DNA of 64,000 nucleotides from Antedon mediterranea (lineage: Eukaryota; Animalia; Echinodermata). Both the position numbers and the translations under genes were made by a program. The notes below the pieces were generated by a model that worked only from the letters and a program-made list of their open reading frames with translations, did not search any database and was not told where the DNA came from. Shown one piece after another: positions 3,461-58,010 of this stretch; the stretch's first letter is position 1, and every line of letters begins with the position of its first letter. The DNA is taken from NCBI RefSeq assembly GCF_964355755.1, contig NC_092671.1:16368001-16432000 (forward strand), in the 5' to 3' direction.

Positions 3461-3592
3461 ATTCAATACAAGCTTTGATTTTTACTTTTAGTTGATACTG
3501 GCGCTATACAAATACCTAAATTATTATTAAAAATTATATACCCATACCTACAAGTGATAATTTTAATAATTCTATTTTGTTTTTCAGTTAAA

Positions 3593-5088
3593 ATGGGCAT
3601 CAGTAAGATATACATTGGTTTGTTAGTTGTGTTAATATTACAAAGTATATTAACATCTAAAGTATCGTCGAATCCTGTTCGCAAACTGAACGAACCACCT
3701 TCACTAAGCAGATGGGGTAAACGTGCAATGAAAAGTAAGCCACCATAAGTCATCTTGTTACCTTTATTAATGTAATTACATCCGTATCAGACACTTTAAG
3801 GGGCCTATCATGTTAAGTATACCTAGTCGGAAACTGCATGGTATCCATTGGTTCAAAGAACCCACGTACCACAGGCAGTAAGAATGGTAATATAGACCTA
3901 GATCATAATAAAATTCTAAATAAAATCATCAAATGACCTCTGACCAGTATAAGATATTTGCCGAATCGTGGAGATATTTGTCTTTAGGTATGATACGTAC
4001 GTATTAGCGTATTGTATTAAGCGTGGTTCCCACTAGCGACGCAACACAACGCAAGTGAATTAACCAATCACAAGCAATGGCTTATTCGCTTGTGATTGCT
4101 AACTGTCTATAACTTCGCTTGTCATTGGTTAAAACGCTTGCGTTGCGTTTACGTCCTTGCGTTACGTTCTAGTGGGAACCAAGCTTTAGCGTAGTGTTAC
4201 GTACGCAGTAGGCATTAGCTATTCTAATATTGACTTGATATCTTAATATTGATTGACCTATTTTAGTACATTATGTATTTAGAATCAATTGTAAACTCGT
4301 CCAAGGTTATTATGATTTTGAATTTTAAAAGGTCCTCAAGCAAACAAGTTTGAGTTTACATAACTCTCCGAATAATTTTATCTATTTTTGTACTTGTTTG
4401 AATTGGCTACTGTAAACTATGATTGGGCCTTTAGTGTTGTATTGCTAATTGTATCATTTGTAATTTGAAACAATTAGGCCTAAAGTAGAAGAGGAAAAAC
4501 TGATCAATTAAAGAATACGGTAGTTCTATTCGATGACAATATAGCTTTTTCTTTAGTTTTTTCCAATTTGTATTTATTTGTTTATTTTCTTACTTAGTTT
4601 CAGAAGAAGAACCACAAGAATTAACCATAAAAATGTTCGGAGATGAAAACGCATTTTGTGTACACATAGCAGCTGGTGGAATATATAGATGTGTTACGAC
4701 GTAAGTTTCATTTAAAAAAAGAATAATTCGTGGGCTTGGGACTGATATGTCGAACGTCACATCATGGAAAAATAAAGGAGCTCATGGTTAAATCCGCTAA
4801 ATACAGTTCTGATATTTAAGGAACAGGGTGTAGTATTATACAGTATTGGGTTTACGCATGCGCAGATTAATCTTTTGTCGTTCCTCAATTTTATGTAAAT
4901 TAAAAGTCGGAATGTCGCTTCATCTCAATCTGGAATTGAAATCGACTAATTATTCAATGTAAAAACTTTTTGTGTGTATGCAAATGTGAAGTTGAAAATA
5001 TATTGGAAAGCTGATATACATTAATGTAATGTCGGTAACATTATGAAAACATTTGTCTTCTTTTGTCAGTGTACTTAACCTGCCATGA
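3593..5088 (+). CDS. Luqin-type (RWamide) neuropeptide precursor 1, 3 coding exons, 87 aa
   Basis: Exons 3593-3734 (donor a|gtaagc, phase 1), 4598-4700 (acceptor ttag|, donor ac|gtaagt, phase 2) and 5070-5088 (acceptor gtcag|, TGA). Translation: MGISKIYIGLLVVLILQSILTSKVSS-NPVRKLNEPPSLSRW-GKR-AMKISEEEPQELTIKMFGDENAFCVHIAAGGIYRCVTTVLNLP. It has a signal peptide, a single RW-G-KR amidated peptide right after it, and a C-terminal Cys pair 10 residues apart, which is the established luqin/RYamide precursor signature. Confidence 0.9.
4020..4185. mobile_element. Harbinger-like MITE family B (TIR AGC(T/G)TGGTTCCCACT), luqin-1 intron
   Basis: TTA TSD. A near-identical inverted copy lies at 45656-45834. 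Confidence 0.8.
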
Positions 5089-7526
5089 TTCTACAAATAA
5101 TGCGTTTGGAGCTTCATAAGAATAAATTGATCATTGATTGTTATGTTGAATTGTTAGAATAATAGATCTGTAAGTAGTAACTGGGGCATTCGTATTATTT
5201 GCAATAAACCTGTCATTCAAAGTACTTTAATCTTGCCGAGATTATTCATAAATTTATATTTCAACAAAAAAGAAGTGACCCACAATTATAGTGATAAAAA
5301 TATCCATTAATCATTATTTTGGATATTTTTAATGACAATAATAACGGTTTTAACATTCAATCAAAGGGTAATGGTATTTCACTGATGAGTACTGGTACTA
5401 CAGTATAATAACAGTGATTATTGCGTGGGAATAATAATTTAGCCGTGAGCGTGACCTTTTGTCTTTTGAACAAAAATATTAATTTCTTTTACAAATCGGA
5501 AAGGAAAACGCACTTAGTTTATTTTAGCAGTACAACTACAAAAAAACACGAGTTATGTACAAATGCTTAGCAAGTACGTGACTAAGAATACAGTAGCCTT
5601 TGAATATTATTTAACTAAAAATATATCAATTTCCTGAGAGCGTTAGTTTACGTGTTCATAAAAAAATCAATTGAAATTCACTTGCAACCACTGCAACCAG
5701 TTGTGATCAAATTACAAAAGCAATGTATTGCTATTTAACCAGCTGAACATGGGGATCGTTAAATGAAATCGAACAGCTAATTACGACTAATGATGAGTCT
5801 GTGTGACATTTAGTGGTGTGATTATGTGAAAATTATGCAAAGTGGACATACAACTTTCTACGAAGCCTTTGGGCAACTTTGCATGTAATTTGTCTCGGGC
5901 ACCATTGGCTCGTCGACTGTTGCATGGAAATTGTCCTATATGGACCTGTTCAGACCAATAAATTCTATATATAGTAACAGATAATATAGTACTGTTCAAT
6001 AATAATTTGTGACGTGTACAAACTATTCATGATTGACAATTCATTTTATTCTCGACAGTTTATGTAATTGATATATTGGGCTGATCTATGCTGTCAGTAT
6101 TACTAACACTAATGTTTCATTTAAGCACTAACGTCATTCAGAATAAATAACTGACAATAACAATTATAGCAGTTATGTGATAACTTGGTATTGGCAGCAA
6201 TATCAGTGACAGTCACTGCATTTCCAGTACTTAGACCTATCACGCGATTACAATCGATCAACATTTGGGATTTTTTATGCCTAGATAAATAGGCCCGGAT
6301 AGAAAGTATAAAAAATACTAAATTAAATGCCAATGACACTGAATGTACAACTTCGGGATAGTTTGTAAAATGTATAAAAGCTAATACTTTTACCATTGTA
6401 ATTATGTACCGATAACCAAATCATTTTTGAATAGGCCTACATGAATTCATTAACGGCCCACTACGGTATTCATTTGTGGTGTGGTACACATACAGTAGGC
6501 CTACCGATCTGTAAACATACAAAAAAGTTAAAATAACACAACTTACCACCGTCAGCATGGCTACAGTAGGCCTACATTCTATCGGTACAAAACGGGGTGT
6601 CAAGTCGTTAAATACCTCCTTTTTAGTGTACGGAACATCTCCAAAATTGGCCTGTTTTTTTTCAAAAGTCTATATCTGACTTCCCATCGTTATTTTTTTT
6701 TCAAACGTAAATACGTCATTTTCTGATGCGCCCTCAAATTAACTAATTTGCATGCGTAACAATCGTTTTCACGTCTTGAGATAATTGCCACATTAATCAA
6801 ATTTTTTTCTTTTGTTTTTCACAGTAAAGACGAGCGATACAACAACTACAGAAAATAACGTAAATTAAAGTCAAGTAAGAAGAAGACGTCAACGAGGGGT
6901 TATAAAATTATACAACATAATATGTTCCAACTTCCAATACCAATTCTTATGAAGAAAGTTTGACGGTGTCGATCATTGATAAGATATAGCATAGTTATTT
7001 TAAGTTGTAGCAGATGTAGCATCCTGCTAATAGAATACACCACTTTTATTATGATTTTGTATATTTTAAAATTTGAAATAATGAAAATGAATTTCTTCGA
7101 ACCGAATATACAAATTGTATTACTAAAGGGTAAAATATGGAACAGGGAATTATTTTATTACACTGTTTCCATAGCTTCCGATAATTTCAGGAACTTGGTT
7201 GGTGACTGGATTTTATTCCCGATTATCATATTTGCTTTACTAGAAATTTAATCAGATTTATTTTTAATCATTTTATATGTTGACATACTTACGCTATGAT
7301 ATCCAAGTTGTAATCATTTGTAAAAATATGATATTACATCGTTGTACATAAATTATATGGAAACCTATTATATTGTTACTAATAGACTATTTTATTTCGT
7401 TTTCCTCGTAAGTTCCAGAATCTAAAGTTCTGCAACGTCAGATGAGTGGCAAAATGGAAATAGGCAGTATTATAGATATGCGCACTAACTGTACTATACA
7501 GTAGCCGTGGAACCAGGGAAGAGTTA

Positions 7527-7707
7527 AGGGTCTTTCACACCTGTTCCGGCACGGTTCCAGTCCGGCGCGGGAAAATCCAATCGAACGTCAATGTTTCGAT
7601 TTTACGCTGCTACGCGCATATCGATTGGCGCATAGCCGCGTGAAAACGAAACATTGATGTTCGATTCGCCGGACCGGAACCGTGCCGGAACAGGTGTGAA
7701 AGACCCT
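7527..7707. mobile_element. Harbinger-like MITE family C (TIR AGGGTCTTTCACACCTGTTCCGGCACG)
   Basis: TTA TSD. A second copy lies at ~13684-13863. Confidence 0.8.
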
Positions 7708-8443
7708 TTAAATTGTAATTTAACTCTTCCCTGGTGGAACTAAGAATGTCAACTGTTATGTATTGTTTCTAATGCATCCTATCATTATTAGACTATGTTT
7801 GCGAGTTCATGTTACTTTACAGAGGTACAAGCGTTGTAATCATTATTTTTAAAAGCCGGAAGCTTATCTTTTTTCTTGTTCGATTACATGTATATATTAA
7901 TTTGTTTAATATTGTTTGCAGATAATTAGGACTACGTATAGGCCTATAAAACAATTATAGCTAATAAATGAATGATATGTGGATATACTGCATTGGTATT
8001 TCATTAGTTAATCTAACGAAAGTGGTCTAAGGAACACAATTTTCAAGCAGGTCTTGTTGTATCAACACAATAATTGTATTTTTTATCAAAATAAAATATA
8101 GCAATTTTAAGTTGGTCGTGTATATTTGTCAATAATTTACTTCGTTTCACTTTACCAGCAAACAATAGTCACTCCTACTGAATGTTATATTGATAATAAA
8201 ACTGTACCTTTATTAAATAATATCAACTTCTTTGCCGTCGTCATCTTGGTAGTCGTCATCTTGGTCGTCGACAACTCTGCCGTCGTCATCTTTGCCGTCG
8301 TCATCTTGACCGTCGTCATATTTGTCGTCGTTATCTTTTTCGTAACGTCATGTGCTTTTTTAGGCATAATTGATACCAAATGATGATTGACCTCAAAGGT
8401 AAAGACTTCACTCAATGTAGGCTGTGAACACTAGAATATTTAA

Positions 8444-8581
8444 AGCTTTGTCTACTATCAAACGTTGTGTTACAAAAAATGTGATTTGCCCATATATGAA
8501 CACGATGATGTCATATCACCACCAAATTTGGACACATCACATTTCTTTTTGTCAAAATATTTTGATAGTGTAGACAGAGCT
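8444..8581. mobile_element. Harbinger-like MITE family A (TIR AGCTCTGTCTACACTATCAAAC)
   Basis: ~140 bp with TAA/TTA flanks. Other copies at 22624-23056 (interrupted), 23260-23395, 38268-38410, 42011-42170, 45095-45258 and 54595-54689. Confidence 0.8.
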
Positions 8582-9350
8582 TTATGTACGATAGAACATG
8601 ATTACATTACTGCCGGATGAGATTTCTCAATTAGTGATTTTCACGCCGCGTATTTGGCAGTTATATTCAGGAGGACGAAGGCGCGGCATAAGGAAACTGT
8701 ATCACGCGCGGAAGCTTATAACTAACGGCTGAAAAAATAGGTATTTCAGACTATATTTACGTCACATAAAATGTTTACTACTGATTTTTAAACAAAAATA
8801 ATTTATAATATATTATTATTTCTTAAATTATTAAATAGAATATCGATGATAAAAAAAAAGCATCATTTAATGAAGAAAGAACGATAATTAAAACTGTTGC
8901 GTCTAAAAGGGGAGAGGCGTTTTTTGTAAGAATATTTCTTGTTTAGGCCAAATGTAGACATATTATTCAAAAATATTCTTATAATAATTGTTTACTAAAT
9001 AGGCATACTATTCAGAGACGTATACCTATTTGTTGGTGTCTGGAGAGCAGATTGGCAACAACAACGTTCGTACGACAGCAGACCTGTGAAATGTGTGTTT
9101 CGAAAGTTCTCCAAAGACCCTATCATTCAAAGTGAAATAATTAAGATAGTCGTCAAACAATTAAAAACGATGCCTTGTCAGTAGCCTACGCCTAGATCAT
9201 GTAGTCCTGTTTCACGTTTTACGGCATTTACATTCAATTCCATAAAATAATGCATGAATAAGGACTTACATTATTTTGGCTTAGATCATTATTGTGCATA
9301 TAAAGTATTTGTAATGACATGTTTGTTCATTCATTTCTATACTTACTTTG

Positions 9351-12179
9351 TTTACCTCCCCAAGGAGGTATATGTAATCGGTAGCGTGTGTTTGTTTGTT
9401 ACTTTGCAAAAAGAATTTTGCCAAGTATAGTGTATTCACTTTGTTTGTATGTATGTATGTATGTATGTATGTATGTATGTATGTATGTATGTATGTGTGT
9501 TTGTATGTATGTTTGTATGTATGTTTGTTTGTTAGCACGATAGCGCCTACAGTTTTCAAGTTATCGTTCTGAATTGTGTTATGTACTTTCAGACCATGCC
9601 TATTGAAAATCAACAAAATTGGTTTATTAATAACTTCACAAATAACAAAAATGATATTATTTTCAGACCGGCTAGTGTTAAAAGATAGGAGACAATTTTC
9701 AAAAGCCGGTGAGCAGTTTTAAAGTAACACGTAAACTGAAATTACATTTTCTCGAGAACTACTTGTCCAAAAAACCTCATTTTTGGACAAGAGGCAAGGG
9801 TTATAATTTGTGATTTGTAATTTTAAAACAAAAATTGATTCAATGTACCGGCTTTTTCATACGAGTAGTTTTAAAAAACCTATTTCTTTTCAAATCACCA
9901 GTTTGTTTTTGGCGTTGCTGTTCTATTGTTATTCAAATTAAACTATTGTTAGTTGATAATTAGGTTTGTTAGTACCAGTGTGTGTCCTTCCTTATTTCAT
10001 TCTGTACATAGGTATATACTTACAGAACATGCCTATTGATTTTCAGGTAAATTTTATTTTATTATTTTTTTTTATTTATTCAATTTCTGCCATATACATA
10101 ACAAAGAAGACAAAACAATTATAAAAGGAGGCACGGAAAGACCAAACAGGTACTAAACACCTATGCTAGTTGGTCAACCCAAAAAACAACGGGGCTCGTC
10201 CGGGAAATGAACCCGGGGCCTCTCGCACCCAAAGCGAGAATCATGATAATTGATATATTGTTTGTCAAAAAAGCTTATCTTCCGTACGATATATTAAACA
10301 GCACGCATTCTGTCTTCTTTTAACATGGACATATTCTTTGATATGGACCAAGACATTAGTCGACTGGTCAAGTGGTTAAACTTACTACATGGGTTAAGGC
10401 AGAGGCGCCGAAAATCGGCACAGCTTCAAGACACTCCTTGATCATTATTCTGGTCAATCTTGATTTTAGAAAGGTCATTATTGCAATGCCGGAATTGTTT
10501 GTATCCAAAAATTATTTAAACAAATTATTAACCCCAGCAATATTTTATCTATGTAAAGCTAATACCTAAGGCAAAAAAAATGTATCTTTCAACATGCTCC
10601 GAGTCAGTGGATATATTTTGCCAAGTACTTCACTCAGTTTCTGAGTGCTTTCATTTGTTTGTTAGCACAATAGCGCCTATAGTTTTCAAGTTATTCTTCT
10701 GAATTTGTGGGTGTAGATAGCTATATACTTTCAGACCATGCCTATTGAAAATCAACAAAGTTCGTTTATTAACTTCACAAATAACAAAAATGATATTATT
10801 TTCAGACCGGCTAGTGTTAAAAAGGAGACAATTTTTAAAAGCCGGCGAGCAATCTTAAAGTAACAAGTGTACTGAAATTGCATTTTCTCGAGAACTACTA
10901 GTCCAAAAAACATCATTTTTGTACAAGAGGCGAGAGTTATAAATTGTGATTTGTAATTTTTAAAACATAATTTGATTTAATGTACAGGTTTATTGATACG
11001 AGTAGTTTTAAAAAACCTATTTCTTTTCAAATTCACCCGTTTGTTTTTCGCGTTGCTGTTCTATTGTTATTCAAATTAAACTATTGTTAGTTGATAATTA
11101 GTCTTTTTAGTAGTGTACTAGCGTGTGTCCTTTCTTATTTCATTCTGTACATAGGTATATACTTACAGATCATGCCTATTGATTTTCAGGAAAACTGATA
11201 TATTGGTCATGTCTCAAAAGCTTATCTTCCGTAAGATATATTAAATAGCACGCATTCGGTCTTTTTTTAACATGGACATATTCTTTGATATGGATCAAAA
11301 TATTATTCGAATGGTCAAGCGGTTAAGCTTACTACATGGGTTAAGGCATAGGCGCCGCAAATCGACACAGCTTCAAGACACTCCTCGACCATTATTCTGG
11401 TCAATCTTGATTTTAGAAAGGTCATTGTTGCAATGCCGGAATTGTTTGTATTAAAAATTATTTAAACAAATTATTAACCTTAGCAGTATTTTAACCATGT
11501 AAAGCTAATACCTAAAGAAAAAATTGTATCTTTCAACATGCTCCCAGTCAGTGGATATATTTTGCCAAGTACTTCACTCAGTTTCTGAGTGCTTTCATTT
11601 GTTTGTTTTTTTGTTAGCAGGATTACTCAAAAAATAATTACAAGATCTTTACCAAAATGAATAGACAGATAGATATGTGGTCAAGGACCATGGGACCATT
11701 TGGGACCACAGTCCCAATTCTGGACCACTTTTTAGTATACTTTTTCAGACCTGCTAGTATTAAAGGATAGCACAGAATTTTTCAAAAGCCGGCGAGCAGT
11801 CTTAAAGTAACAAGTAAACTGAAATTGCATTTTCTCGAGAACTACTTCATTTTTTAACAAGAGGCAAGAGTTATAATTTGTGATTTGTAATTTTAAAACA
11901 TAATTTGATTTAATGTGCACGTTTTTTGATGCGAGTAGTTTCAGAAACCTATTTCACTCGTTTGATTTTCGCGTTGCTGTTCTATTGTTAGTCAACTGAA
12001 GCTATTGTTAATTGAAAGGCTTGTTACATAACCATTACACCAAACTCGCATACACATGCTTGTAATGAAATTAGCCACACACACAAATATATATATATAT
12101 TTTTTTTACCGGAGAAATCTTATGTAGGAGAATTTTACAGTAGGCGGAGGTATGCACTCTCGGAGTGGCTTTCTAGTTT
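9351..12179 (+). mobile_element. Nested/tandem Helentron-associated non-autonomous elements (HINE/DINE-1-like)
   Basis: Outer element: TTACCTCCCCCAAGGAGGT ... GGCGGAGGTATGCACTCTCGGAGTGGCTTTCTAGTT (subterminal inverted repeats, 3' hairpin, GTTT microsatellite). Inner family: ACTTTGCAAAA..TTTTGCCAAGT start, (TATG)n, ending TTGCCAAGTACTTCACTCAGTTTCTGAGTGCTTTCATTTGTT at ~10655 and again at ~11600. A ~950-bp body is duplicated head to tail, with a third partial copy at 11740-12010. Confidence 0.7.
10192..10244 (-). pseudogene. 5'-truncated tRNA-Pro(TGG) fragment
   Basis: The reverse complement ATGATTCTCGCTTTGGGTGCGAGAGGCCCCGGGTTCATTTCCCGGACGAGCCC matches the 3' two-thirds of metazoan tRNA-Pro (anticodon TGG, T arm, acceptor 3' strand). 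The first ~19 nt are missing, and a T6 run follows. Confidence 0.85.
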
Positions 12180-13683
12180 CATAATGTACCGATACACATT
12201 AAATTCACATACACATTATGCTTTGAAGACGTACATTTTCGAGGCTGTTTTGCTAAAGTGTCGTAACAGTGTCATATGCATCTTTACATGATCCACATGA
12301 CACTGTGTCATAAACTTTTGATTATGATACTGCATCAATTATCAAATTATAGTACTGAGAACATCTAATTCCATGACTTCTACTATTCATAATACTATTT
12401 CTACTGTACCAAGGCTACAATAACTAGGCCTACTAACTTCGTTAATTAACGGAAATGAAACATGGGTAGTCTTCATGAACATTATTCCATATACCTTGCA
12501 TCATCGTTAATTTCAAATTGATATTATTGAACCTCTTGTTAAATGAAGAAGAATACGGTAATAAGGTCAGTGGTAACCAATTACACAAGAAAATAATCTG
12601 CTTTGAACTAATTTGGTATGAAAATTCATTTTCATCAATGTGTATATTAGCTTGTGTATAGTATTACACACTAAGCAACATATCGAGGAAGTGGATAACC
12701 GTACGTCTATACTGCAAGGTTAGATGTAAATGGAAGATAATTATTGTAATTCAATAAGATATCTAATAATGTTTTCGATCAAATACTTCTATTAGTTGGG
12801 AGTTTGCGCGCGGTATATACACCTGATTTAATTAGTGTATATTATTTTAATAAAACAACAATATACATAGAAAGATTGTTCTACTCATTCACGACTATTA
12901 TACTGATTAAGACCAAGCACTGTACCAATGTATTACTGATGAAGAAGAAGCCTTTAAAGTAGATTTTAAAAGCTTTTAAAAAAATAATGTAATGATCTAC
13001 GTATCCACTATAACAATCCATTCAATTGAACATATCGTATTATAAAAACTTTTAATCAGCCAGCTAATTATTTACTGGTGTTTGTTCCCTGTTGACAGAC
13101 TACTTCGATTTAAATTGATCAATAGTATTCCAAGACTTAAGGAATATAGGCCCTATATATTATTATCTACAATATAATACATTACATACCGATAAATCCA
13201 ATTGCATACAGCTTACTAGATGTAACAGAAATGCCATGATAGAAAACAATATTTTGATATTAATAATACGAAAACAAAATAATATTTAGTTTCGAGCAAA
13301 AGTTTATTTTCTTTCTTTGTCCAAAAATAACAAATATCTCACGTTAATACATTTTCAAAATTATAAATATACATGGTACCGTATTCTCTATCATAACGTA
13401 ATAATTATGTTATTACTCCATGATTCTACCAAATTATAATAACAATTAAAAATCGTCAATTTTGTGTTGACGTGTTCGATTCACAATTTTAGATTGTATG
13501 ATCGGCGTTATATAAACAGAGACTATTTACCGCCAAAATTGCAATGACAAACATCCGACTGGCGTTCTGGTTTAACGTCAGTGCGTCGACGACGTGGTGT
13601 ACACGGAGTGGCATCTCGAATCTGCCCTCATCTTGGTACATTTGTTTGTAACTGGAGCATCAAGTTATTATTTTATTGTGTTA

Positions 13684-13863
13684 AAGGTCTTTCACACCTG
13701 TTCCGGTACGGCGCCGGAAAATCCAATCGAACGTCGATGTTTCGTTTTCACGCGGCTACGCGCATATCGATTGGCTCATAGCCGCGTGGAGCGTCATGAA
13801 AAAGAAACATTGATGTTCGATTCGCCGGACCGGAAGCGTGCCGGAACAGGTGTGAAAGACCCT
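13684..13863. mobile_element. Harbinger-like MITE family C copy
   Basis: Same TIRs and internal sequence as 7527-7707. Confidence 0.8.
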
Positions 13864-15577
13864 TTACTTCTGAATTAATTTCCATATAGAAGCTAAAAAA
13901 ATAAACTTAGGCCTATTTCCAAAAAAGCAGTAAAGGGAAATATAAATGGGCGCGGCGCTGCAACAGTGGTAATAATAAGGGCCTACTTAAGAATACCAAA
14001 CATTTTAATGACATTATTGTTTGTCTAATTCTGTTATGAAACAATGAATTACGGAATGACGCCGATGATTTTTAAATATCTAGAACAGACCAGTATTCAA
14101 ACTTCTTGATTTGAGAGGTCAATAAAATGTGTCTGTGACGTAATATCGTGCGTGTGTCGTGATCTGAAATAAAACAAAAATTATTATGGTAATGTCGAAT
14201 CATTAATCAAACTGAACTTTTGATCCAAATTATCTGTAAAAGAACAAATTAATCATTCATCTGAGTCAATATATAAAAATGTCAAAATTAAATGAATGAG
14301 GGAAAAAAAATTAAAATTCATAGCTTGTCAATCATGATAAAAATGAAATAAAAATATTAATTACACAGCGTATTAAATTATTATTTAAAATTGAAAGTAG
14401 AATTATTAGAATACAACAATGGAGATTATTATTTTTGTGACGTACGTGAGCACCAAGCTAAAATGCATAAAAGGCAGTCGCTTGTTCAGCCCCCGTCAGG
14501 AATGTTAGAGTAGGTCTTTGTTATTATTATTTATTTCTATTATAAATACTTAAAGATTATTTTCTGAAATGCCAAAGGGGGATAAACAATTAAGACCTTT
14601 TTGGCGTGTCATATTTTAATTTTGGTAAAATGTATAAATTAATATTAGGCCTATAACAACAGCGGCACAAACAAATCGCAAACATACATACATATCGAAA
14701 AAATACAAGAAAAAATTAAATCATTATAGCAAATACTTCATAATTCATGCCTTTTTTATATATCTTTTACTAAACTTATTAAATACATCATAAAGAGGAT
14801 TAGGCTAAACTTTGGGTCATTAATAAATTAGTCAGAGTTACCAAAAGTTAACATTAATTTTACACCAGAAATCAAAAGATATCAATGATTAAACTACTCG
14901 TGTTAGATCATGGCACTTTCAAGATTAAACAACGTTTTGACTCGCTGATAATACATTTAGGCATAGTAGGCCTATATAAAAAAGAAATGGATTATGAGAA
15001 TGAAAGGTGAAATAATTGGACTTTAGAGTATTTTACAAATGCGATTGATTGGAGTCAGTGTCCTACAATAAATACAATATTACTTTAATTAGTATTACAT
15101 AATTTCTAAATTTTATCAATTTCGTGAATAAAAAAATGCAATCTAAAATATATATACTTTATATACATATCAATCATATCCTGCTAGTTTGTTAACTTGA
15201 AATAATGGTAATGTTGACGTGGTATTAAAACAATTGCGACATAAAGCGTTTTTAATACGTACAATAAACCAGAATCACTGTGTCATAAAAGTGTCACATC
15301 CGATATAAACATCTATAAAAATGACTGTATTTAGCTCTCAGCAGTACTACATTCAAATTCAAACGAGTATATAATATGACGACCGAAAAAAGAAAGCTTC
15401 TTGAATCCAATCATTTTACATCGATTGTAATTGTTATAGGTTTTGTTCAGTTGTCTTGGATTGTTGTCAAATTATTATCCTATAATCACAACTAATATTA
15501 TAGACACCTTAATACTAGTAGAACAATTGCCGTCATCAAGTAAAATTACACCCATCACAATCATATTATTGGATCTA

Positions 15578-15812
15578 AGGCCGTGTTTCCGCAGCCAAAA
15601 AAACATTATCGGTTAATTTTTTAACCAATAAAGTGCGCATGGTTAGTCATTACCAAACAACCAGATGCCCAATCACAACGCAACAATTTGTCCTTCAGGT
15701 CAAAGGTTAAAAATTATCACATTTTATCCGATAATTATCCGGTTAAACCCCGTTTCCACAGGCAGTTTATCGGTTAATTATCGGTTAAGTTTTAGCTGCG
15801 GACATACGGCCT
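15578..15812. mobile_element. MITE (TIR AGGCCGT(G/A)T(T/G)TCCGCAGC), Harbinger-like
   Basis: Inverted termini and internal TTATCGGTTAA repeats. Confidence 0.65.
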
Positions 15813-16959
15813 ATACATAAACCGTTATCGTACAACCATGACTATTGGACTAGGTTTTGTTGAGTCAAGAAAAGAGAAAGCCATTCTTATCTACCGACAG
15901 AATAGGCATTTCATTTCTAAAACTGCATACGGCTTACTCTACAATCCACACCGTCTGTTGTTCGGTGACGAATCATTCTTCATTACGCTACCAAATCTAC
16001 GCGAATCTACTTTTACTATGGTGTTAATATAATATAACATAAGTCGTTTCATTAATGTATTATTATATAGTATTCTAACAGTCAAAGGGAAGCTCTAAAT
16101 TACCAGGCGACAATACTGCACGGAAAGATAATACAAGTGCGCATTGTAAAAATTATGATCAGATCTAATTTGTTTGTGGAATAAGAAAACTGAAATATTC
16201 AACATTTATTCTAGTAATTAATTGTAAATCACAGATTCTTTACTAGGCAAACTTAATAATACCGTCTAATCACTGCAGCATCTTATTCCAGTTAAGAAGA
16301 TAAGTACGCATAATAAATTTAATAGTATATTTCAAATTTGCTTTCAACGTGACGACGATATAACAAAACGATGCAATAGCCAATGTCATCATGTAAAAAT
16401 TATAATATATTTTTTATTTTTTTAGAAAACAGGTCTGATAATTAGTGTTTCCTTAAGATGCTATTATGAATCTGGACCACGATGGTACCATTATCTACTT
16501 GCCTGATTGTTATTATTTTCAAACACTTAGTATCCTAGTTATCGTTAGCAATTTCTCTTTAAATCGAAATCCCGGTTCAAAAGCCTCTACTTAATGAAAG
16601 TTCTACAGACTAGTACGTCTTTGTTAAATACATCCACCTACCTCACTAAAGAGCAGTTTTGACTGGTTTAATTTTGATTCATAACGTGCGCTATCAGGGC
16701 TATAAACAGATTAATCATAATTCTGTGGATGGCTAATGTCTATTGATTCATAATCCTTCTTAATTCGTTCGCAACTTCCATAACTCATTGATAGAATAGG
16801 ACATTTGATCTACGAATCTAGGCGGTAAGCTTTCATGTTCTATAGAAATATAATCATGAAATACTCATCTGAAGCCTATGATGATGTAATAGCAATTATA
16901 TGCAGGCCTATATAAGGAGTGTTTTTAAATAGTAAAATACCAAGAAAACGACTAACATT

Positions 16960-17480
16960 AGTAATGTTTGAATGATGAATAAACGATGATGGTGATGATG
17001 ATGATAAAAAATGATGATATTGTTGTTGATGCTGATGAAGAAGAGGATGAAAAATGACGATGTTGTTGTTGATGATGATGATGAAGAAGAAAAATAGGAC
17101 AAAAAATGATGATGTTGTTGATGATGAAAGAAGAAGATGATGATGATGATGAAGAAGAAGATGAGGATAAAAATTGATGACGTTGATTATGATGATGTTA
17201 AAGATGATGATGAAAAATGTTGATAATGAAGAAGAGAATGAAAAATGATGATGATGAAGAGGAAGAAAAATGATGATGTTAATGATAAGGATGATGATGA
17301 AGAGGACGAAAAATGATGTTGTTGATGATGACGATGGCTATAGGTAAGGAGGATGATAATGAATAGGATAATTACGACAGGGATGATGAAAAAATTGTTT
17401 TTTTAAAATATGTTGATGATGATGATAATGATGGTGACAAGAGTTGATATCGATATACTTAAATAAACATATGATGGCGA
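16960..17480. repeat. Degenerate (GAT/GAA)n low-complexity tract
   Basis: GAT, GAA and GTT runs with frequent frame-breaking insertions. Confidence 0.85.
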
Positions 17481-17719
17481 TAACGGTCAATGATGACGTG
17501 TTAAACTGTTTTAAAATTATATTATTACACATACATTACGTTCAATTGCTTTTACTCTAAAGAAAATTAAAAAGCATTCAGAAATGTCACCTAAATTGAA
17601 TACTTGAAGTTGTTTACGTCTGCTTCAAAGGGATGATGATGTTTGATGTAAACACTTTTTAGTTTTTCTATTTAACTGATTTATATTAGATATATACTCG
17701 ACTTTTTTTTATGGACAAT

Positions 17720-18244
17720 TGTTATGTAAACCGCCACTTACCGGTGATATGTTGTGTGTAAACCGCCACTTACCGGTGATATGTTGTGTGTAAACCGCCA
17801 CTTACCGGTGATATGTTGTGTGTAAACCGCCACTTACCGGTGATATGTTGTGTGTAAACCGCCACTTACCGGTGATATGTTGTATGTAAACCGCCACTTA
17901 CCGGTGATATGTTGTGTGTAAACCGCCACTTACCGGTGATATGTTGTGTGTAAACCGCCACTTACCGGTGATATGTTGTGTGTAAACCGCCACTTACCGG
18001 TGATATGTTGTGTGTAAACCGCCACTTACCGGTGATATGTTGTGTGTAAACCGCCACTTACCGGTGATATGTTGTGTGTAAACCGCCACTTACCGGTGAT
18101 ATGTTGTGTGTAAACCGCCACTTACCGGTGATATGTTGTGTGTAAACCGCCACTTACCGGTGATATGTTGTGTGTAAACCGCCACTTACCGGTGATATGT
18201 TGTGTGTAAACCGCCACTTACCGGCGATATGTTGTGTGTAAACC
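17720..18244. repeat. 32-bp minisatellite, ~16 copies
   Basis: Unit AAACCGCCACTTACCGGTGATATGTTGTGTGT, near-identical, head to tail with no spacers. Confidence 0.97.
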
Positions 18245-18689
18245 TAATCTAAAATGTTCTTCTTTTGTTGTCTTTGTGCAACGACATAAATTTACAAAAC
18301 AGTTCGAAGTAAACAAGATTCATATGACATTATTATTTTTAGTATTTTTATTCATTAGCATTATCAAGAATTGCCAAAAGCGAAATTAATCCGTTGTCTA
18401 TGTCTGCAGCAATGATCATACTATTTTTCAAAAACCACAATACAGTGCGTTTTCCCTTTTATTTATTTTATACTTTGTAGATTCGGAGAACTGGCAAAAT
18501 GTAATTATTCATTCATATTTAATAACATTATATTGATTAGATTATGATAAAATGTCAACATTTTTAGTTAAAGGTATTTACAAATCCTGACCATTATGAA
18601 TAATATATAAACGTATTTATATATTAATCCAAAGGCAAATTACTGAAAATATGACAATGCTGTGGGTATCAGTGGCTGGATCTCAATGG

Positions 18690-18960
18690 AGATACAAAAA
18701 AAAGCTAAAAGCTAAATCAAAACGATAAAGAAAAACAGCCAGAAAAGTTCGCAGAGCTTTCCAGCAACACTAGCCCTTCATCAGTGCAAGTGAAGGAATT
18801 TGGATAACGTCATAGTATAAGAACTGGCAAGTGCTGCCTGGGTGGACAGGAATAAAAGAAATACAACAAAGGGTGACAGGGTGGAGTCTGAATAAGAGTA
18901 GAAAACAAAGAAGGTAGCTTGGTAGAGATATAAACAATTTGGGAATTTAACTAAAAAACA
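18690..18960 (-). mobile_element. Penelope-like element terminal remnant with a minimal hammerhead-like motif (18749-18789)
   Basis: Minus strand TTGCA-CTGATGA-AGGGCTAGTGTTGCTG-GAAA-GC-TC-TGCGA. A related degenerate copy lies at ~39965-40057. Confidence 0.55.
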
Positions 18961-20318
18961 GCTTAAATTTATGTATTATTATATATTTAATATTTTTGAA
19001 GAACAGAAATGTATTAATATAAATTATGTAAATCATTAGAGGTGTTGATCGATTCGTAGTGGGTTAACTATGCTTAAAAACTAACCTACTGATTGTCTCA
19101 ATCAATACTGTACACAGCTGCTGTATTCAAAATTAAAACTATAGATCTAAAAAAGAACCACGTGCAACTAAACTAAATATATTTATCTGTTCAAGAAAGT
19201 TTCATCAGCGTTTCCAAACAACTAACATTGTTAATTTGCATGGTGCATATATGAAGGCCGATCAATAAACTAAGATTGTTTATTTATTGTTGATAAATTA
19301 ATTTTAAAAACACCTTATTGAATTAAGGGTAATATTATTTGAAGAATATAGGCCATTTTATCATAATTACTGTATGTTACCGTATTGTTCGTAAATGGAA
19401 TTTGTTTCCTAATTATTTGGCATAACTGCTTTTTTGGGTATATACATTATCTGAACAATTCAGTACAGTATCCAAGTTCTATAGAAAACAATACCGTGGA
19501 TATACCATTTATCTACATAATAACTGATATTAAGAAGAGTGTGATACTTTGCAATGTACAATATAAGGAATTCTCCAGAAAACTATGCAATGTACAATAT
19601 AAGGAATTCTCCAGAAAACTATACATTAAATAAACAAATTATCAGTCCTAAAGCCTGTATTCAGATCTAGTAGATCAGATCAAATAGTTATAACTAAATA
19701 AGTCGCCAAGATTGCAGCAAACTGAAAATATATAATGGATAATAGGATGTCTCTGAGAAGGCCAGTCATTATAATGAACCATTACATAGTAATATAGGCG
19801 TTATTGAAAAATCTATAGACAATTCTGTACATCAGTAATCCAAGGTTTAGTAACAAAACAATCGAAAAATATCGTTTAAGAAAAATGAACCTCATGCGTA
19901 CAATATCTATCGGTATGAATGAAGAAAGAATAAATACACGCCTACTCTAAAAGAGAAAACAAAATGATTATACAATGTTCGTTGACTTCAAATCTTGTTA
20001 AAAAAAAACCTAAAGATACAAAGTATAAATATACACTATAAATAAATGCACGTCAAACAAATATCTGGTCAATTAATCCTTTTCTGACGATTGTTTGTTT
20101 GCATCAAAGCGATTATATCGAACTACTTTGACGACATATCACCTGGGTCGTATTGTAGCATAATTGTGTTTGTCCAATATGATAAATGTATGATATTGCC
20201 TAAGTTGCTGTTGATAAATCATTCATTTTTTTCTAACTTGCATCTGAGTAAATCATTCAGCAGCCTAAACAAGTTAAATGTACTACCATTTTCTACTATA
20301 TTATAGGCGCGGAATCCT

Positions 20319-23300
20319 TTAAAGCTGACTTTGACTTCCATGGTAGCGTCTTCTGAATAAAACGGTTAGCAGCGCACAACAACTATACAATTCTTTTTAC
20401 AACAAATACTTTTAAAGAGTTTCTACGACAGAATTGCTTCAAAGACGAAAACAAGTATTGGAATATTAATGTAAATGGTTAGCTGTATATTCATAATATA
20501 ATATCTTCGCCGTTTTTAGTAAGTCAGTCAACATTACTCTTTAAAACGTCATATTCACATTGAAACTAAAGAACTTAAAGATTATGTTTTCGGGTAGCAT
20601 TTTCCTTCACAGAACTATGAAACTCGAGAAAAGAGAAACATAGCCAACAGCAGTGAGCGATATCTATCAACAGGAAATGTATATGTCTATATAGGACGTC
20701 AAATGTCGTAGTACGACATTGTACGCGCGCTTCCTTCATGTTCAAATATTAGCCTCGTCACGTTTGCATTAATTTTTGGCAATAATCATTTAACATTAAA
20801 ATTGTGTTTAGGGAATCAACACTTAACACTAGGTAATAGCACTTATATAGTGCCTAGATAAGTGAGTGAATAAATACGACCAAAAAAGGTTGGGAATCAA
20901 CGTCTAAAATAGTTCTTATATTCATAATAATATAAAACCACTACAATGACAAACTCTTGTCCGTTATTAATATGACAGTATACCGATATCCAATCAAATA
21001 TAACGTTGCTGAACAACCAAACACGGTTAATAATCCCCCTCTAATCAAATTAGAGGGGGATTTTTTTAATTTTAATAATTAGCTCTTTGTCTACTCTATA
21101 CGTTTACTAGGCTGATTTCTGAATGTACGTAAGCTTCAAATTCAACAGTTTTACTAAAATAATAAAAAGATCGTTAGTAGTACCTTATAATACACTTTAG
21201 TCTCTTTAGAAATGGCCCATCACATACACCAGGTGTGTCTATAAAATCAGTGTTATCTTTATTGAAGAGAGTGCTAAGTGTCGTAGATATGTTTAATAAG
21301 TCTTCTTTAATATCAGCCATGTCTTTATTGGATTCTGTAAAGAGATGAGTATACATTGTAATAACAGTATATTGACATACGTCATCATGCACATTTTTAT
21401 ACTTTGATTTTCCAACTTTTATTTACGCGATTTCATTGATAAAAATTGTCTTCCCGTACTATGATTAACAATGCTACACACAAACTTACATTTATTGTCA
21501 ATACTATCCAATCTTTTACATGTTTTAATGTTTTAGCACATTCAACGTTTAAAGTATACGTTAAATGTGTTAAAACATGAAAAATGTAAAAGATTGTTTT
21601 TATTTCTGACTGGGTTTATATTCTATTGGACATTGTGTCTCAATTGTAATTGTGTATGTTCTCGGCTCCAGGGAAAAAACAATCATGAGTTTATCTGGAT
21701 TTTCGTGGATAAATTGAATTTTAAAAAATGAAGTACAGTGGCATCTTTAGCTCAAATGACAACTGAAGTAAATTGCCCTAGGTTCAATTCCCTATAGTTG
21801 CAACCATAGTAATGTAAAAACTGGAATCTATGACCTTTCGCGCGCATATCGTGAATGTTATAGAATTTGTAGCAGGTGTATAAAATTGCGTTATATATGA
21901 CGTCATTAAAAATCAGAACAAGACACAATTATAAGGCAATTAAGCCGAGTCGTACAGCCCATTGGGACTATTCAACCTGGTTCTTTATTGAGTCTTTGAT
22001 AGATAAAAAGATGTGATCACTACTCATCTTGACAAGGTATTTAGAGTACAACGTTCTGACGCCGTATTCACATAAATTGTCGGTGACAGAGAGAAAACGA
22101 TGATACATAAATCGACGCGCGCGTACAAATGATGATAATAATACATCACACACTAGCGTAAACGTTTGTGTCACTATTATTTATTTATTACTCAAGTATA
22201 TATCTTTGTAAAATTAAAGCCAGTAAATTCCACAAAGCTCAAGAAGAAAGTTTAACTGATTTGATTTGTAGAATAATGATTGTTTTTCTCGGATTTGAGT
22301 ATAAATTAAAACTAAATCATTCACAAACACAGCTTATGAAAATTTGTTTAAATCCTATTAAGTTATACACATCATAATTAACTAATTATCATTATTGGTA
22401 AAGTAGCTTGTTCTTCTCAAACACCCGCCTTTGTTGCGTATAACCTTTTACCGTGATTTTCATTTACAGCCCTGTACTAATACGTAAATACATTTGATTA
22501 TCGGTGGTTAAAATGTCAATAAACTACAGCAAAACGAGAAATAATAAATAGTTAGTAGGGGGATTATTTACGTTTGGTAAGGCCTGTATACGCAAGTTTA
22601 GTACCTTACGGTGATGTATGTAAAGCTCTGTCTACACTATCAAATTAGTTTGACAAATAAAGTGTGATGTGCCCAAATACCTCCCACACACAACCATCAG
22701 CTCCAGTTCACCCTCCCCAAAGTCAGGACACAACGCACAAAAAACTTCATTAATTTCCAAGGAGTTTTCAATGATTGGTGAATAATCAGGAACTGAGTTA
22801 TGATTAGCAAATTGTGAACCCATTTTGGTTTGTTGTACACTATGTTTTTTTTTCTTTGATAAATTTTTTTAAATATTTATGTCAACTTCATCACTGTTTA
22901 CTTGATGCAATAACAGGAAATAAATAAAATAAATAATAAAATAAATAATAAAATATATGGTAGTAATATGGCCAATTATGGTAGTGATATTACATCATCA
23001 TGTCCATATATGGGCACATCACATTTTTTTGTCACATATAGTTTGATAGTGTAGACTTAAGGCCAATTGTGGTGGAAACTCATCTTTATGTCCAGCTTGG
23101 TACATTTGGTCCGCCTTGTGGTTCAAGGAAAGCTCTTGAGTTTGGGATAAACACCGTAAGAAAAACCTACTGACAACACGTCCTGCCAACGCATCAGTAT
23201 ATGGAAAACAGCCTCAAGTATGGTAACGGATGCTTGAGGAGGAGGGCTAAATTCCGTTAAGCTCTGTCTACACTATCAAACTTTATGCGACAAAAAATGT

Positions 23301-23637
23301 GATGTGCCCATATATGGACATGGTGATGCCATATCACTACTATTTAAGCATATCACACTTTTTTTTCAAACTAGTTTGATAGTGAAGACAGAGCTTTAGT
23401 AAGTATTTACATTTGAAGTAAAACAAATTGTATACAAACAAGAAAATATGTTTATTAAAATAATTAGTATTTGATTTACATACCTGATAATGATGTGTAC
23501 GTTCGTTTTCCCCATCTACTGTGTTTTGGAGGGTGATTGAGGCGGCGTACTGCTTCGATCGGCGTTACAGTGGATAGAATTAAAACATACACAAGAGTCA
23601 TACATAATATCGACGTCACCGGACTGTTGTTAACCAT
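20319..23637 (-). CDS. Luqin-type (RWamide) neuropeptide precursor 2 (divergent paralogue), 3 coding exons, 112 aa
   Basis: Exons 23637-23484 (donor g|gtatgt, phase 1), 21334-21184 (acceptor ttacag|, donor ag|gtacta, phase 2) and 20352-20319 (branch gctaac, acceptor ttattcag|, TAA). Translation: MVNNSPVTSILCMTLVYVLILSTVTPIEA-VRRLNHPPKHSRW-GKR-TYTSLSESNKDMADIKEDLLNISTTLSTLFNKDNTDFIDTPGVCDGPFLKRLKCIIRRRYHGSQSQL. Architecture and intron phases match precursor 1, but the Cys pair is spaced by 9. Confidence 0.82.
23260..23395. mobile_element. Harbinger-like MITE family A copy (luqin-2 intron)
   Basis: TTA|AGCTCTGTCTACAC...GTGAAGACAGAGCT|TTA. Confidence 0.8.
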
Positions 23638-24834
23638 CTTAAAACTGTAATCGAAACAGAGTGAACTTACTGAGAGATGTGTGTTTACTGAACAAGTTGA
23701 ACGTTTTGTGAAGCCTTCAAACAATAATTACGGATAACGTCACTAACATGTACAACTGAAACGCAACTCGATATTGGCATAGAAACAAAACATAGACATA
23801 AGCTATGATTATTATTTTCTAATTTTTACAATAAATTGTTATATTTATATGCAAATGAGAGCTACCAACAAAATAAGCGGATTAAAGTATTATATTTAGT
23901 TAATAATAATGTTTAAAGTATCGTAAGCCAAAACTGCCTTAGATGTTCGACCTATTTGTTGTTAAGTTATAACCAATCAAAAGAAAGAACGAACGCTATT
24001 TTTCATTTGTTAAAAATGAACCCAAAGACAAAATGTATACGGTATGCTGTTTGTATCTTTGGTGTAGTTTTCCAAATTTGAGTGTACTGTAAATGGTGAG
24101 TATTTAGTGTGGTCGCACTCTCCTACACCTCAATAGAAATGCTTAGCCTCAGTATCAACTTCTATGAAGTAAAACGTCATGCCAAGATATCGCAATATTA
24201 TTTTTAAAAATGGCAAAAGCAATTAGTATGTTCATTTTGAATGTTATAATATATCGAGCCTAAGTTATCAACGAAACATTCTCGGGGGATTCGAACCCGC
24301 AAAGGGCGAGTATCATAATAATCGTTACCACAATATCACCATACATATACAATATAATTTTTCTAATTACTGAAACGTTATAGCTTACTTTCTATACATT
24401 GCATCTATTCTATTATGACATTGATATTCAATTAGATATCAGTATGGCCCAGGTTCAAATTTTCTGAATTAATCAAACAATTTTTCTTGGAATTTAACCA
24501 AAATATACATTATAGGCCTATACACGATTCCAACGTGAAATAATAAAACAAGAAATAACATTATTTACTGTAATTTAGGTTGATACCTTTAGATTTAAAA
24601 CAAGAACAAAACGATGCTCATTATACGACTCTAATTTAATATGTCTCACAATGCATGGTAGGCCCTTTAAAATGACGAATTTAAAGTACTTCAAAAAGTA
24701 TTCAGGAATCTTCACACAGCTAGGTCTTGAGTAAATAGAAAAATAAATATATTCATAAACTCTAGCTAGATTTTCATAATACATTTTGATAGGTGAAAAC
24801 AATACAACGGTAAATAAATATGTGATTATCTTAC

Positions 24835-28000: not shown

Positions 28001-29964
28001 ACTAACAAAATTATATTTTAATTTTGTTTCTAAAAATAAACAATAACGTCACTACGTAGTTGTTTGATTGATGACCAATGAAACGGTTAATTCGTTTTAC
28101 TATTAATTTATAAAAAAGAACAACAAATTATACATCAGAGCTTTTATCTGAAAATGTGGAGCAATTTAACATGGTTATACGTGAGAACCCATTGTCAGTA
28201 TAGTAATGTTTAATTGAAGACTGACCCGGCCCAGATCATGTTTTAAATAATACACCGTTTACTCATTCGCATTGGATCTAATTAATTTACGTGAGAAAAT
28301 AAAATAAAAATAATTTACATTTCACATTCATTTGTTTAGCAGGCAAAAATAAAGTTATATGCATCTTAGTTTTTGAATAAAGACAAGTTGAAAATTAAAC
28401 AAAGGAGAGAGAAAACAGTTACTAGGGAAGAGTTTCCCACTAGCTAATTACAAAATCTATGTTAGAGCAATATCACCTTTTATTTAAATCAGGTTCTTAC
28501 CAGTAAGCATCCTTTGATATTATAACAGCAATGAAAATACAATTATGTTCAGTCTAGACTATACATACCGTTTGAGATCTCTAAGTAGATTATTGAATGC
28601 GTTTGGTTTCAAATAAAACACCGATGAATGAATTCGTTGCTCGCTATTCTTAATAAAACTACAATAAAAAGGCAATTGCACTTAAGACTATAGTGTTATT
28701 CTTGTTTAACGAGGTAACCCATCAGTCTCAGATTTAATAAAAGTGTAAACTTGTTTCAGCTCAGCTGGCGGATTTATAACGCAACTGAGCTAGACTTTCA
28801 ATCGTTTGGGGGCAGTATAGAAAAAAGGAATGCAATGGGAGTCCCCCGGCGATGAATAAAAAAAAACACGCCCACCAGTTAAGAATGACAACTTAAGATA
28901 CCACGAAATAGCCTACTTTTATAGTTGATACAAGCTTATTTGTTGTCAATCAGTCTACAACTTACAAAATATCGTAATATAATAACGCGTGTACAGTAAG
29001 GTACTAAATATATTTCAATTTCCGGTTAAGAAAGTCTGAATGAGGGGTCTGTGGGTACCCAGTACAGCCAGACACACAACCGTTGTGTGTCTGGCTGCAC
29101 TGTTACAGTGTGTGAAGGCACACGTTCAAAAAGAGTTGAAAATCAACTTGTGTCGTTAGATCACTAAATTTTAAAAAAAATGTGTTTATGTAGGCAGGGC
29201 TTAGTGTAGGCAAGAAAGAGTATTGGCATTTTAAATGATACAATACACAATTAGTAAGCCTCAAATCATCTCTATGCTCAAATTAAGTCTTTTTGTTAAA
29301 TGAAAACATACATTTTTTTTGCAATCATGCAAACAAAGAATACAATGCATTGCTGAACTCACCTGGTACGAGACGTGTAGTACAACACCGTCAATTAGAA
29401 CTTGTTGTTTGTAGCTGACGTTCAGCCATTAATGCATTAATTAAGCTATATCCATTAGATAATATACACATAGAACAGCCAAAATATTATGACACGGTGT
29501 CCTCCCACGTTAAAGTTATTATATTACTATTACTATCGGTCCCCTAACGGGGTTTTATTTATGTTTAGGCCTCTGGCCCTTATATCTTACATACAAATCA
29601 TACAATAATATTTTCTGGTATATAAAATGTATACTGTACATCTTTATGTGGATCTACAGTATTTCACAATAACAGTGTCCATGATGTAAACAAAGTTTGT
29701 GTTTGCACTTTTTATTATCAAATAATTAATCAGTATAAGTATACTCATTCAGCGCGCCAAAGTTGTAAAAAAAAATTACCAACGTTATTACACTTAATTG
29801 ATAGATTACAACATTTTAAAAGAATTTTAGTCTCCTCTCCTAAATATTGTAGAGGAATGATCTGGTCTGTAAAATGTCCACTTGCAATATCGATTGAGGG
29901 CGCTAAACTAAACTTCTGGTTTTATATTGTTTGTTTATTTTCTGTATTTTCGTGTGCCGTCATT

Positions 29965-32900: not shown

Positions 32901-33137
32901 GATGATGAGCCAGAGGAGAAACCAGAAGTAGATGAGAATGACCCTGAGGAACTTAAAAGAGCAAGGGAGCTTGATGAATGGAAAGATGGTAATTTTTAAC
33001 TGTACAGTTCTTTTTAAAAAATGCATAGAATTTTTTTTTTAATTGTGTAAAAACATGCCATGTCACTTAATTATATCAACAATTCTTATCTTTCAGACCA
33101 TAAACGAGGCTGGGGAAATAGGTATAACCGTTCATAA
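29965..33137 (+). CDS. IGBP1: Immunoglobulin-binding protein 1 / alpha4 / TAP42 family PP2A regulator, 8 exons
   Basis: Exons 29965-30093, 30431-30543, 30646-30784, 30975-31172, 31583-31744, 32135-32274, 32864-32988 and 33097-33137, all GT-AG and in frame. Motifs LFSSNEQVDEISTQDLRYLLLP, KPFIITRDSVQAKVFGAGYPSIPT and RARELDEWKDDHKRGWGNRYN match TAP42/IGBP1. AATAAA at ~33260. Confidence 0.95.
32390..32780. repeat. ~32-bp tandem array with an inverted unit (foldback/MITE derived) in IGBP1 intron 6
   Basis: Unit TAGATCTAGAAAACCAAGATATCCGAGTTTCC, ~11 copies, ending GAGACACCC. Related to the palindromic element GGGTGTCTAGAAAACTCAGATC...TCTAGACACCC at 45547-45619. Confidence 0.85.

Positions 33138-35721: not shown

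Positions 35722-58010
<22,289 letters not shown>

What the first reader, a model, noticed from the sequence alone, without database searches (positions are those of the whole stretch)
3593..23637. Convergent pair of luqin-type RWamide neuropeptide genes: a duplicated signalling system
Seen: two spliced precursors about 15 kb apart on opposite strands. Each has its ATG a few nt after an acceptor, a signal peptide, one RW-GKR peptide, a phase-1 intron after the cleavage site and a phase-2 intron just after the second Cys. The core peptides LNEPPSLSRW-NH2 and LNHPPKHSRW-NH2 share 7/10 residues (LNxPPxxSRW), and each is preceded by a dibasic RK or RR. Known: luqin/RYamide precursors have this layout with C-terminal C-x10-C, ambulacrarian luqins end in RWamide (typically ...FMRWamide), and the system is lost in chordates. 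Inference: this is an old local inverted duplication giving two ligands with an atypical SRWamide end, possibly paired with different luqin-type GPCRs. I cannot tell from here whether transcriptome surveys have already reported these.
Basis: partly seen in the sequence, partly recalled or inferred. Interest (0 to 1): 0.85.

Follow-up and report, generated by a model that had tools for sequence, protein, structure and literature searches.

The report
Feather star's two known luqin genes
These are the two feather-star luqin neuropeptide genes already published from transcripts in 2022; the genome only adds that they sit tail-to-tail 7 kb apart and likely duplicated before feather-star families split.

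Summary
Both genes are real and already described. The + gene (ATG 3593) is AmLQP2 and the - gene (ATG 23637) is AmLQP1 of Aleotti et al. 2022 (PMC9793003). That paper also reports two precursors in Antedon mediterranea and SRWamide as the normal crinoid ending. Signal peptides, RW-GKR peptides, 7/10 identity and intron phases check out. Contigs of run X1 join 3734/4598, 23484/21334 and 28569/23644. That gives 92 and 123 aa as published, and the 123-aa model equals RefSeq XP_071941440.1. The stop codons are 7.2 kb apart. The - gene has C-x9-C, not C-x10-C. Modest additions: the tail-to-tail linkage, and the fact that Anneissia's single published precursor is an LQP1 orthologue while Florometra's is an LQP2 orthologue. 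So the duplication likely predates these lineages and is not Antedon-specific as the paper suggested. Receptor pairing is untested; in starfish one ligand activates both receptors.

The parts
3588..3734 (+). Gene A (AmLQP2) first coding exon; CDS from 3593: signal peptide, neuropeptide, GKR site
   Evidence: X1 contig piece 3586-3734 with 0 other letters; matches published AmLQP2
3671..3724 (+). Predicted AmLQ2 NPVRKLNEPPSLSRW-amide (3671-3715), Gly amide donor (3716-3718), KR (3719-3724)
   Evidence: sequence; 15-residue amidated peptide predicted in PMC9793003; no mass spectrometry seen
4598..4700 (+). Gene A second coding exon with C-x10-C (Cys68, Cys79)
   Evidence: joint 3734->4598 GT..AG in X1
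6825..6858 (+).
28569..28848 (-). Gene B (AmLQP1) 5' UTR exon
   Evidence: joint 28569->23644 in X1 contig; motif from the published transcript maps here
23484..23644 (-). Gene B first coding exon; CDS from 23637: signal peptide, neuropeptide, GKR site
   Evidence: 100% to P0001 over the 51 aa queried
23503..23541 (-). Predicted AmLQ1 LNHPPKHSRW-amide (23541-23512), Gly (23511-23509), KR (23508-23503); preceded by RR
   Evidence: sequence; 10-residue amidated peptide predicted in PMC9793003
21184..21334 (-). Gene B second coding exon with C-x9-C (Cys89, Cys99)
   Evidence: joint 23484->21334 in X1
14097..14163 (-).
   Evidence: encodes the published C-terminus; the model equals RefSeq XP_071941440.1 letter for letter

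Best explanation
These are the two published crinoid luqin-type precursor genes, AmLQP2 (+, 92 aa) and AmLQP1 (-, 123 aa), lying tail-to-tail, and each is predicted to release one amidated SRWamide neuropeptide that likely acts on the feather star's luqin-type receptors. Shown: gene structure, splicing of three introns in one run's contigs, and identity with published precursors. Inferred from established neuropeptide biology: the signal peptide is removed, prohormone convertase cuts at KR (and at RR in LQP1), and the Gly is amidated, giving LNHPPKHSRWa and NPVRKLNEPPSLSRWa (or the shorter LNEPPSLSRWa if RK is also cut). Inferred by analogy with Asterias ArLQ: both peptides activate a shared set of luqin-type GPCRs and modulate neuromuscular tone such as tube-foot relaxation, differing mainly in where and when they are expressed. 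The pair most likely arose by one local inverted duplication before the Antedon and Anneissia lineages split. LQP2 kept the ancestral C-x10-C and LQP1 shifted to C-x9-C.
For: Published AmLQP2 is identical to the corrected gene A model (92 aa), and published AmLQP1 differs from gene B at 2 of 123 residues (72 and 88) (compared by eye). Run X1 carries exactly these two alternative letters (21273, 21227), so they look allelic. Gene B equals P0001/XP_071941440.1. Paralogy: local score 81 (20 of 51 identical) against a shuffle maximum of 41 in 500, same intron phases, and intron 2 three codons after the second Cys in both. Age: only 62 of 142 nt match in the anchored first exon, and 5 of 17 same-residue codons are identical. 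Anneissia P0002 scores 288 (56 of 119) with gene B but 79 with gene A, shares C-x9-C and has the same intron phases and positions. Florometra's precursor matches gene A at 63 of the first 79 residues with C-x10-C (hand count). C-x10-C is the usual family state, and one starfish ligand activates two receptors and relaxes tube feet (passages of PMC7041311 and PMC5940834).
Against: No receptor, peptide or physiology was tested here, and none for crinoid luqins appeared in the passages read. My searches returned no starfish, urchin or protostome luqin, so family placement rests on motifs and the published assignment, not on my own alignment. Pfam gave no family for the precursors. The Atlas look-alikes of P0001 were other neuropeptide precursors (CCHamide, GnRH, corazonin), and the tool itself flags that family as probably wrong. 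Gene B misses the C-x10-C spacing by one residue. The two corrected last junctions were not bridged by laid reads. The age inference uses only four crinoid sequences with no rooted tree, and no second gene has been shown in Anneissia or Florometra.
Confidence: 0.85

Rival explanations
1. Subfunctionalised ligand-receptor pairs: LQ1 and LQ2 each prefer a different luqin-type GPCR.
For: The peptides differ at 3 of 10 core positions, including charge (E/H, S/K, L/H), and each paralogue is separately conserved in another crinoid. Starfish and urchin have two receptors, and the starfish ones differ about 30-fold in EC50 for ArLQ.
Against: Two receptors exist in echinoderms that have a single ligand, and ArLQ activates both, so receptor duplication needs no second ligand. 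Both peptides keep the same PPxxSRWamide end. No crinoid receptor was examined.
Confidence: 0.25
2. The duplication is specific to Antedon mediterranea, as PMC9793003 suggests.
For: Only one precursor was found in each of Anneissia japonica and Florometra serratissima.
Against: The two single precursors belong to opposite paralogue types. The Anneissia search used annotated proteins only and Florometra a transcriptome, so a second short gene could have been missed.
Confidence: 0.07
3. Gene B (LQP1) is not a functional luqin ligand gene but a diverged paralogue or a different RWamide family.
For: C-x9-C spacing; similarity to gene A is confined to the first 50 or so residues.
Against: Same intron phases and second-intron position as gene A, intact and spliced, conserved at 47% in Anneissia. 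Spacing exceptions are known, such as C-x8-C in C. elegans.
Confidence: 0.07

Closest known systems
AmLQP2 (Antedon mediterranea luqin-type precursor 2; Aleotti et al. 2022, PMC9793003)
   Same: Identical 92-aa sequence to corrected gene A
   Different: Nothing at protein level; exon structure and linkage to LQP1 were not seen in the passages read
AmLQP1 (same paper; RefSeq XP_071941440.1, named 'uncharacterized protein')
   Same: 123 aa; identical to the RefSeq protein and 121 of 123 to the published one
   Different: Residues 72 (S vs R) and 88 (V vs L), both seen as alternative letters in run X1
Anneissia japonica XP_033105719.1 (P0002) and Florometra serratissima 'LQP1'
   Same: SRWamide, Pro-Pro, one peptide per precursor; Anneissia shares C-x9-C and intron positions with gene B, Florometra shares C-x10-C and about 80% of the first 79 residues with gene A
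   Different: Each was reported as the only luqin of its species, and both were labelled 'precursor 1' although they correspond to different paralogues
Asterias rubens ArLQP / ArLQR1 / ArLQR2 (PMC5940834)
   Same: Signal peptide, single RWamide peptide, KR site, C-terminal Cys pair
   Different: One precursor gene with MRWamide; ligand, receptors and tube-foot relaxation shown experimentally, none of which I saw for crinoid luqins

Membership tests
Luqin/RYamide precursor (ambulacrarian RWamide type) | N-terminal signal peptide | tested here: met
   Hydrophobic maximum in the first 20 residues of both; hydropathy only, no SignalP run
Luqin/RYamide precursor (ambulacrarian RWamide type) | Single peptide right after the signal peptide ending RW-G-KR | tested here: met
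Luqin/RYamide precursor (ambulacrarian RWamide type) | C-terminal Cys pair spaced by ten residues: gene A | tested here: met
   Cys68-x10-Cys79
Luqin/RYamide precursor (ambulacrarian RWamide type) | C-terminal Cys pair spaced by ten residues: gene B | tested here: not met
   Cys89-x9-Cys99, as in Anneissia P0002. The literature calls the spacing typical, not strict; gene B is filed as luqin-type on the published assignment and its paralogy with gene A
Luqin/RYamide precursor (ambulacrarian RWamide type) | Sequence homology to non-crinoid luqin precursors | tested here: inconclusive
   Searches returned only crinoid proteins or noise; no Pfam family
Luqin/RYamide precursor (ambulacrarian RWamide type) | Mature amidated peptide activates a luqin-clade GPCR | not testable with these tools
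   Needs mass spectrometry and a receptor assay
Crinoid luqin subtype (PMC9793003) | SRWamide ending and adjacent Pro-Pro | tested here: met
   Both peptides
AmLQP1 / AmLQP2 (already described genes) | Identity with the published precursors | tested here: met
   92 of 92 and 121 of 123 residues (by eye); 123 of 123 to XP_071941440.1

The most novel reading that the evidence does not exclude
Feather stars as a group carry two ancient luqin lineages, LQP1 (C-x9-C) and LQP2 (C-x10-C), kept as a tail-to-tail pair, and each peptide has become the preferred ligand of a different luqin receptor: two separate luqin signalling channels in a deuterostome. The first half alone (duplication older than the Antedon/Anneissia split, correcting the published 'species-specific' reading) has about 0.85 probability and interest of about 0.25.
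Probability: 0.2. Interest if true: 0.4.

Novelty: already known. Interest (0 to 1): 0.15.

Why it matters
Little is new: both precursors and the SRWamide motif are in print. The genome adds exon structures, tail-to-tail linkage next to IGBP1, and a correction of orthology: the single luqins reported for Anneissia and Florometra are different paralogues. This predicts an overlooked second gene in each species and moves the duplication back to at least early feather-star evolution. That matters to echinoderm neuropeptide specialists when choosing ligands for crinoid receptor assays, not beyond.

Tried and rejected
No whole genome is held for this window, so further luqin copies or receptors elsewhere in the genome could not be sought. 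The protein search with gene A's first exon against longer proteins found none of 10 candidates at E<=10 (weak evidence). The representative search with gene A's second exon gave 3 hits, none a precursor-sized protein; the best (P0003) is a long repeat protein and was rejected as noise. Pfam: 0 families for P0001, P0002 and two gene A exons. Atlas: generic neuropeptide look-alikes only, and structure hits all under TM 0.5. No holder on record as RNA was listed; X1 is only guessed to be RNA. The lack of X1 cover at 5070 and 20352 is not counted on its own. An alternative acceptor at 4603 (85-aa form) was rejected because the X1 joint lands at 4598. Of 59 ORFs of 45 aa or more between the genes, 3 had weak Pfam hits, all below cut-off, so no intervening gene was detected. 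A 20-mer from the published LQP2 5' UTR was not found in the window at up to 3 mismatches; that exon probably lies left of the window. No earlier findings of this scan matched. Conservation of the IGBP1-AGAP synteny in other echinoderms could not be tested. A computed comparison with the Florometra precursor was not made because no tool returned it; it was counted by hand.

Full report
Observation. Each has an N-terminal hydrophobic stretch and one RW-GKR site. The window holds 2 RWG[KR][KR] sites in six frames, and 0 of 60 base shuffles reached 2. The peptides LNEPPSLSRW and LNHPPKHSRW share 7 of 10 residues. Gene A has C-x10-C, but gene B has C-x9-C.

Already in print. A paper search for luqin and crinoid listed 15 of 16 papers, led by Aleotti et al. 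2022, PMC9793003. I read passages of its main text, its methods section 5 and the luqin rows of supplementary files 2 and 3. It reports two luqin precursors in Antedon mediterranea: AmLQP1 (123 aa, predicted 10-residue amide) and AmLQP2 (92 aa, predicted 15-residue amide). It states that SRWamide and a Pro-Pro pair are the crinoid pattern, against MRWamide in other echinoderms. The supplement's AmLQP2 matches gene A and its AmLQP1 matches gene B.

Corrected gene models. They lie at 6825-6858 (+) and 14163-14097 (-), each behind an AG acceptor. With these exons the models are 92 and 123 aa, as published. Gene A is identical to AmLQP2 and gene B differs from AmLQP1 at residues 72 and 88 (compared by eye). 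The gene B model equals P0001, RefSeq XP_071941440.1, letter for letter. The stop codons are thus 7.2 kb apart, and no Pfam family above cut-off was found in 59 ORFs between them.

Splicing evidence. Five runs hold the stretch, none on record as RNA; X1 is guessed to be RNA. In X1 a 488-nt contig joins 3734 to 4598 (GT..AG) with no mismatches, and the other run laid (X2, kind unknown) showed no such joint. If these start at 14163 they end at 13832, about 37 nt inside a repeat that begins at 13868. That is where such a contig would be expected to break, which is indirect support only. The same contig carries the two alternative letters (21273, 21227) that give the published residues at 72 and 88. 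The two replacement junctions rest on the published and RefSeq proteins, not on laid reads. This is one run from one study.

Paralogy and age. Genes A and B align over the first 50 or so residues (score 81, 20 of 51 identical, shuffle maximum 41 of 500). Both have a phase-1 intron shortly after the KR site and a phase-2 intron three codons after the second Cys. Nucleotide similarity is nearly gone: 62 of 142 positions match in the anchored first exon, and 5 of 17 same-residue codons are identical. The search with P0001 returned 2 proteins among 4 candidates: itself and the Anneissia japonica protein P0002. P0002 scores 288 against gene B and 79 against gene A, and shares C-x9-C with gene B. 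Its coding exons of 151 and 139 nt put its introns in the same phases and places as gene B's. The Florometra precursor in the supplement matches gene A at 63 of the first 79 residues and has C-x10-C (hand count). C-x10-C is the usual family state (passages of PMC7041311 and PMC5940834), so C-x9-C is a derived trait shared by gene B and Anneissia. I infer that the duplication predates the Antedon-Anneissia split. The paper instead called two precursors distinctive of A. mediterranea, but it searched only annotated proteins for Anneissia and a transcriptome for Florometra. Against my reading: it rests on four sequences without a rooted tree, and the predicted second genes have not been shown. 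One mitogenome paper (passages) groups Florometra's relative with Antedon, so the Anneissia comparison carries most of the weight.

How it works. From established neuropeptide processing (inferred, not shown): the signal peptide is removed, the precursor is cut at KR, and the Gly is amidated. LQP1 is also cut at RR, giving LNHPPKHSRWa. LQP2 gives NPVRKLNEPPSLSRWa as the paper predicts, or LNEPPSLSRWa if RK is cut. The function of the Cys-pair region is stated as unknown in the passages read. In Asterias one ligand activates two receptors (EC50 2.4e-8 and 7.8e-10 M) and relaxes tube feet. The simplest reading is that both crinoid peptides share the luqin receptors and differ in expression. Separate ligand-receptor pairs remain possible but have no evidence.

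Membership. Signal peptide, single RW-GKR peptide and crinoid SRW/PP motifs are met in both genes. C-x10-C is met in A and missed by one residue in B. I could not show homology to non-crinoid luqins myself: the searches returned only crinoid proteins or noise, Pfam gave nothing, and the Atlas gave generic neuropeptide look-alikes. Receptor activation is not testable here.

Novelty. The genes, the peptides and the motif are known. I did not see the genomic linkage or the cross-species orthology stated in the passages read or in the listings of searches for luqin with Antedon (6 papers), with Anneissia (4), with duplication, echinoderm and RWamide since 2023 (2), or for SRWamide (2). Only listings were seen for those other papers, figures are not held, subscription papers are mostly missing, and bioRxiv supplements were closed. 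Verdict: already known, two junctions corrected, one small evolutionary correction; interest 0.15.

Noticed in passing
window 29966-32996 (+): IGBP1/TAP42-family gene: six ORF pieces hit PF04177 in order. It starts about 1.1 kb from the 5' end of gene B's transcript, head-to-head.
   Followed up: partly
   Followed up: partly
window 48105-52679 (-): Intact 1524-aa single ORF with no Pfam hit at E<=0.1, next to a 166-bp tandem array at 47212-48050. Its C-terminal Cys cluster and XPG-like motifs resemble an Academ-type DNA transposon (label recalled, not tested).
   Followed up: no
window 7523-7710 and 13680-13868: The same roughly 190-bp palindromic MITE-like element (84% identical copies) lies downstream of both stop codons; these are the only two copies found in the window. 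Probably independent insertions.
   Followed up: partly
window about 4015-4190 and 22620-23380: Very high-copy palindromic repeats inside introns of both genes (summed contig depth above 1e5).
   Followed up: no
window 17725-18244, 32421-32773, 36911-37975: Minisatellite arrays: 32-mer x16, 32-mer x11 and 26-mer x41.
   Followed up: no
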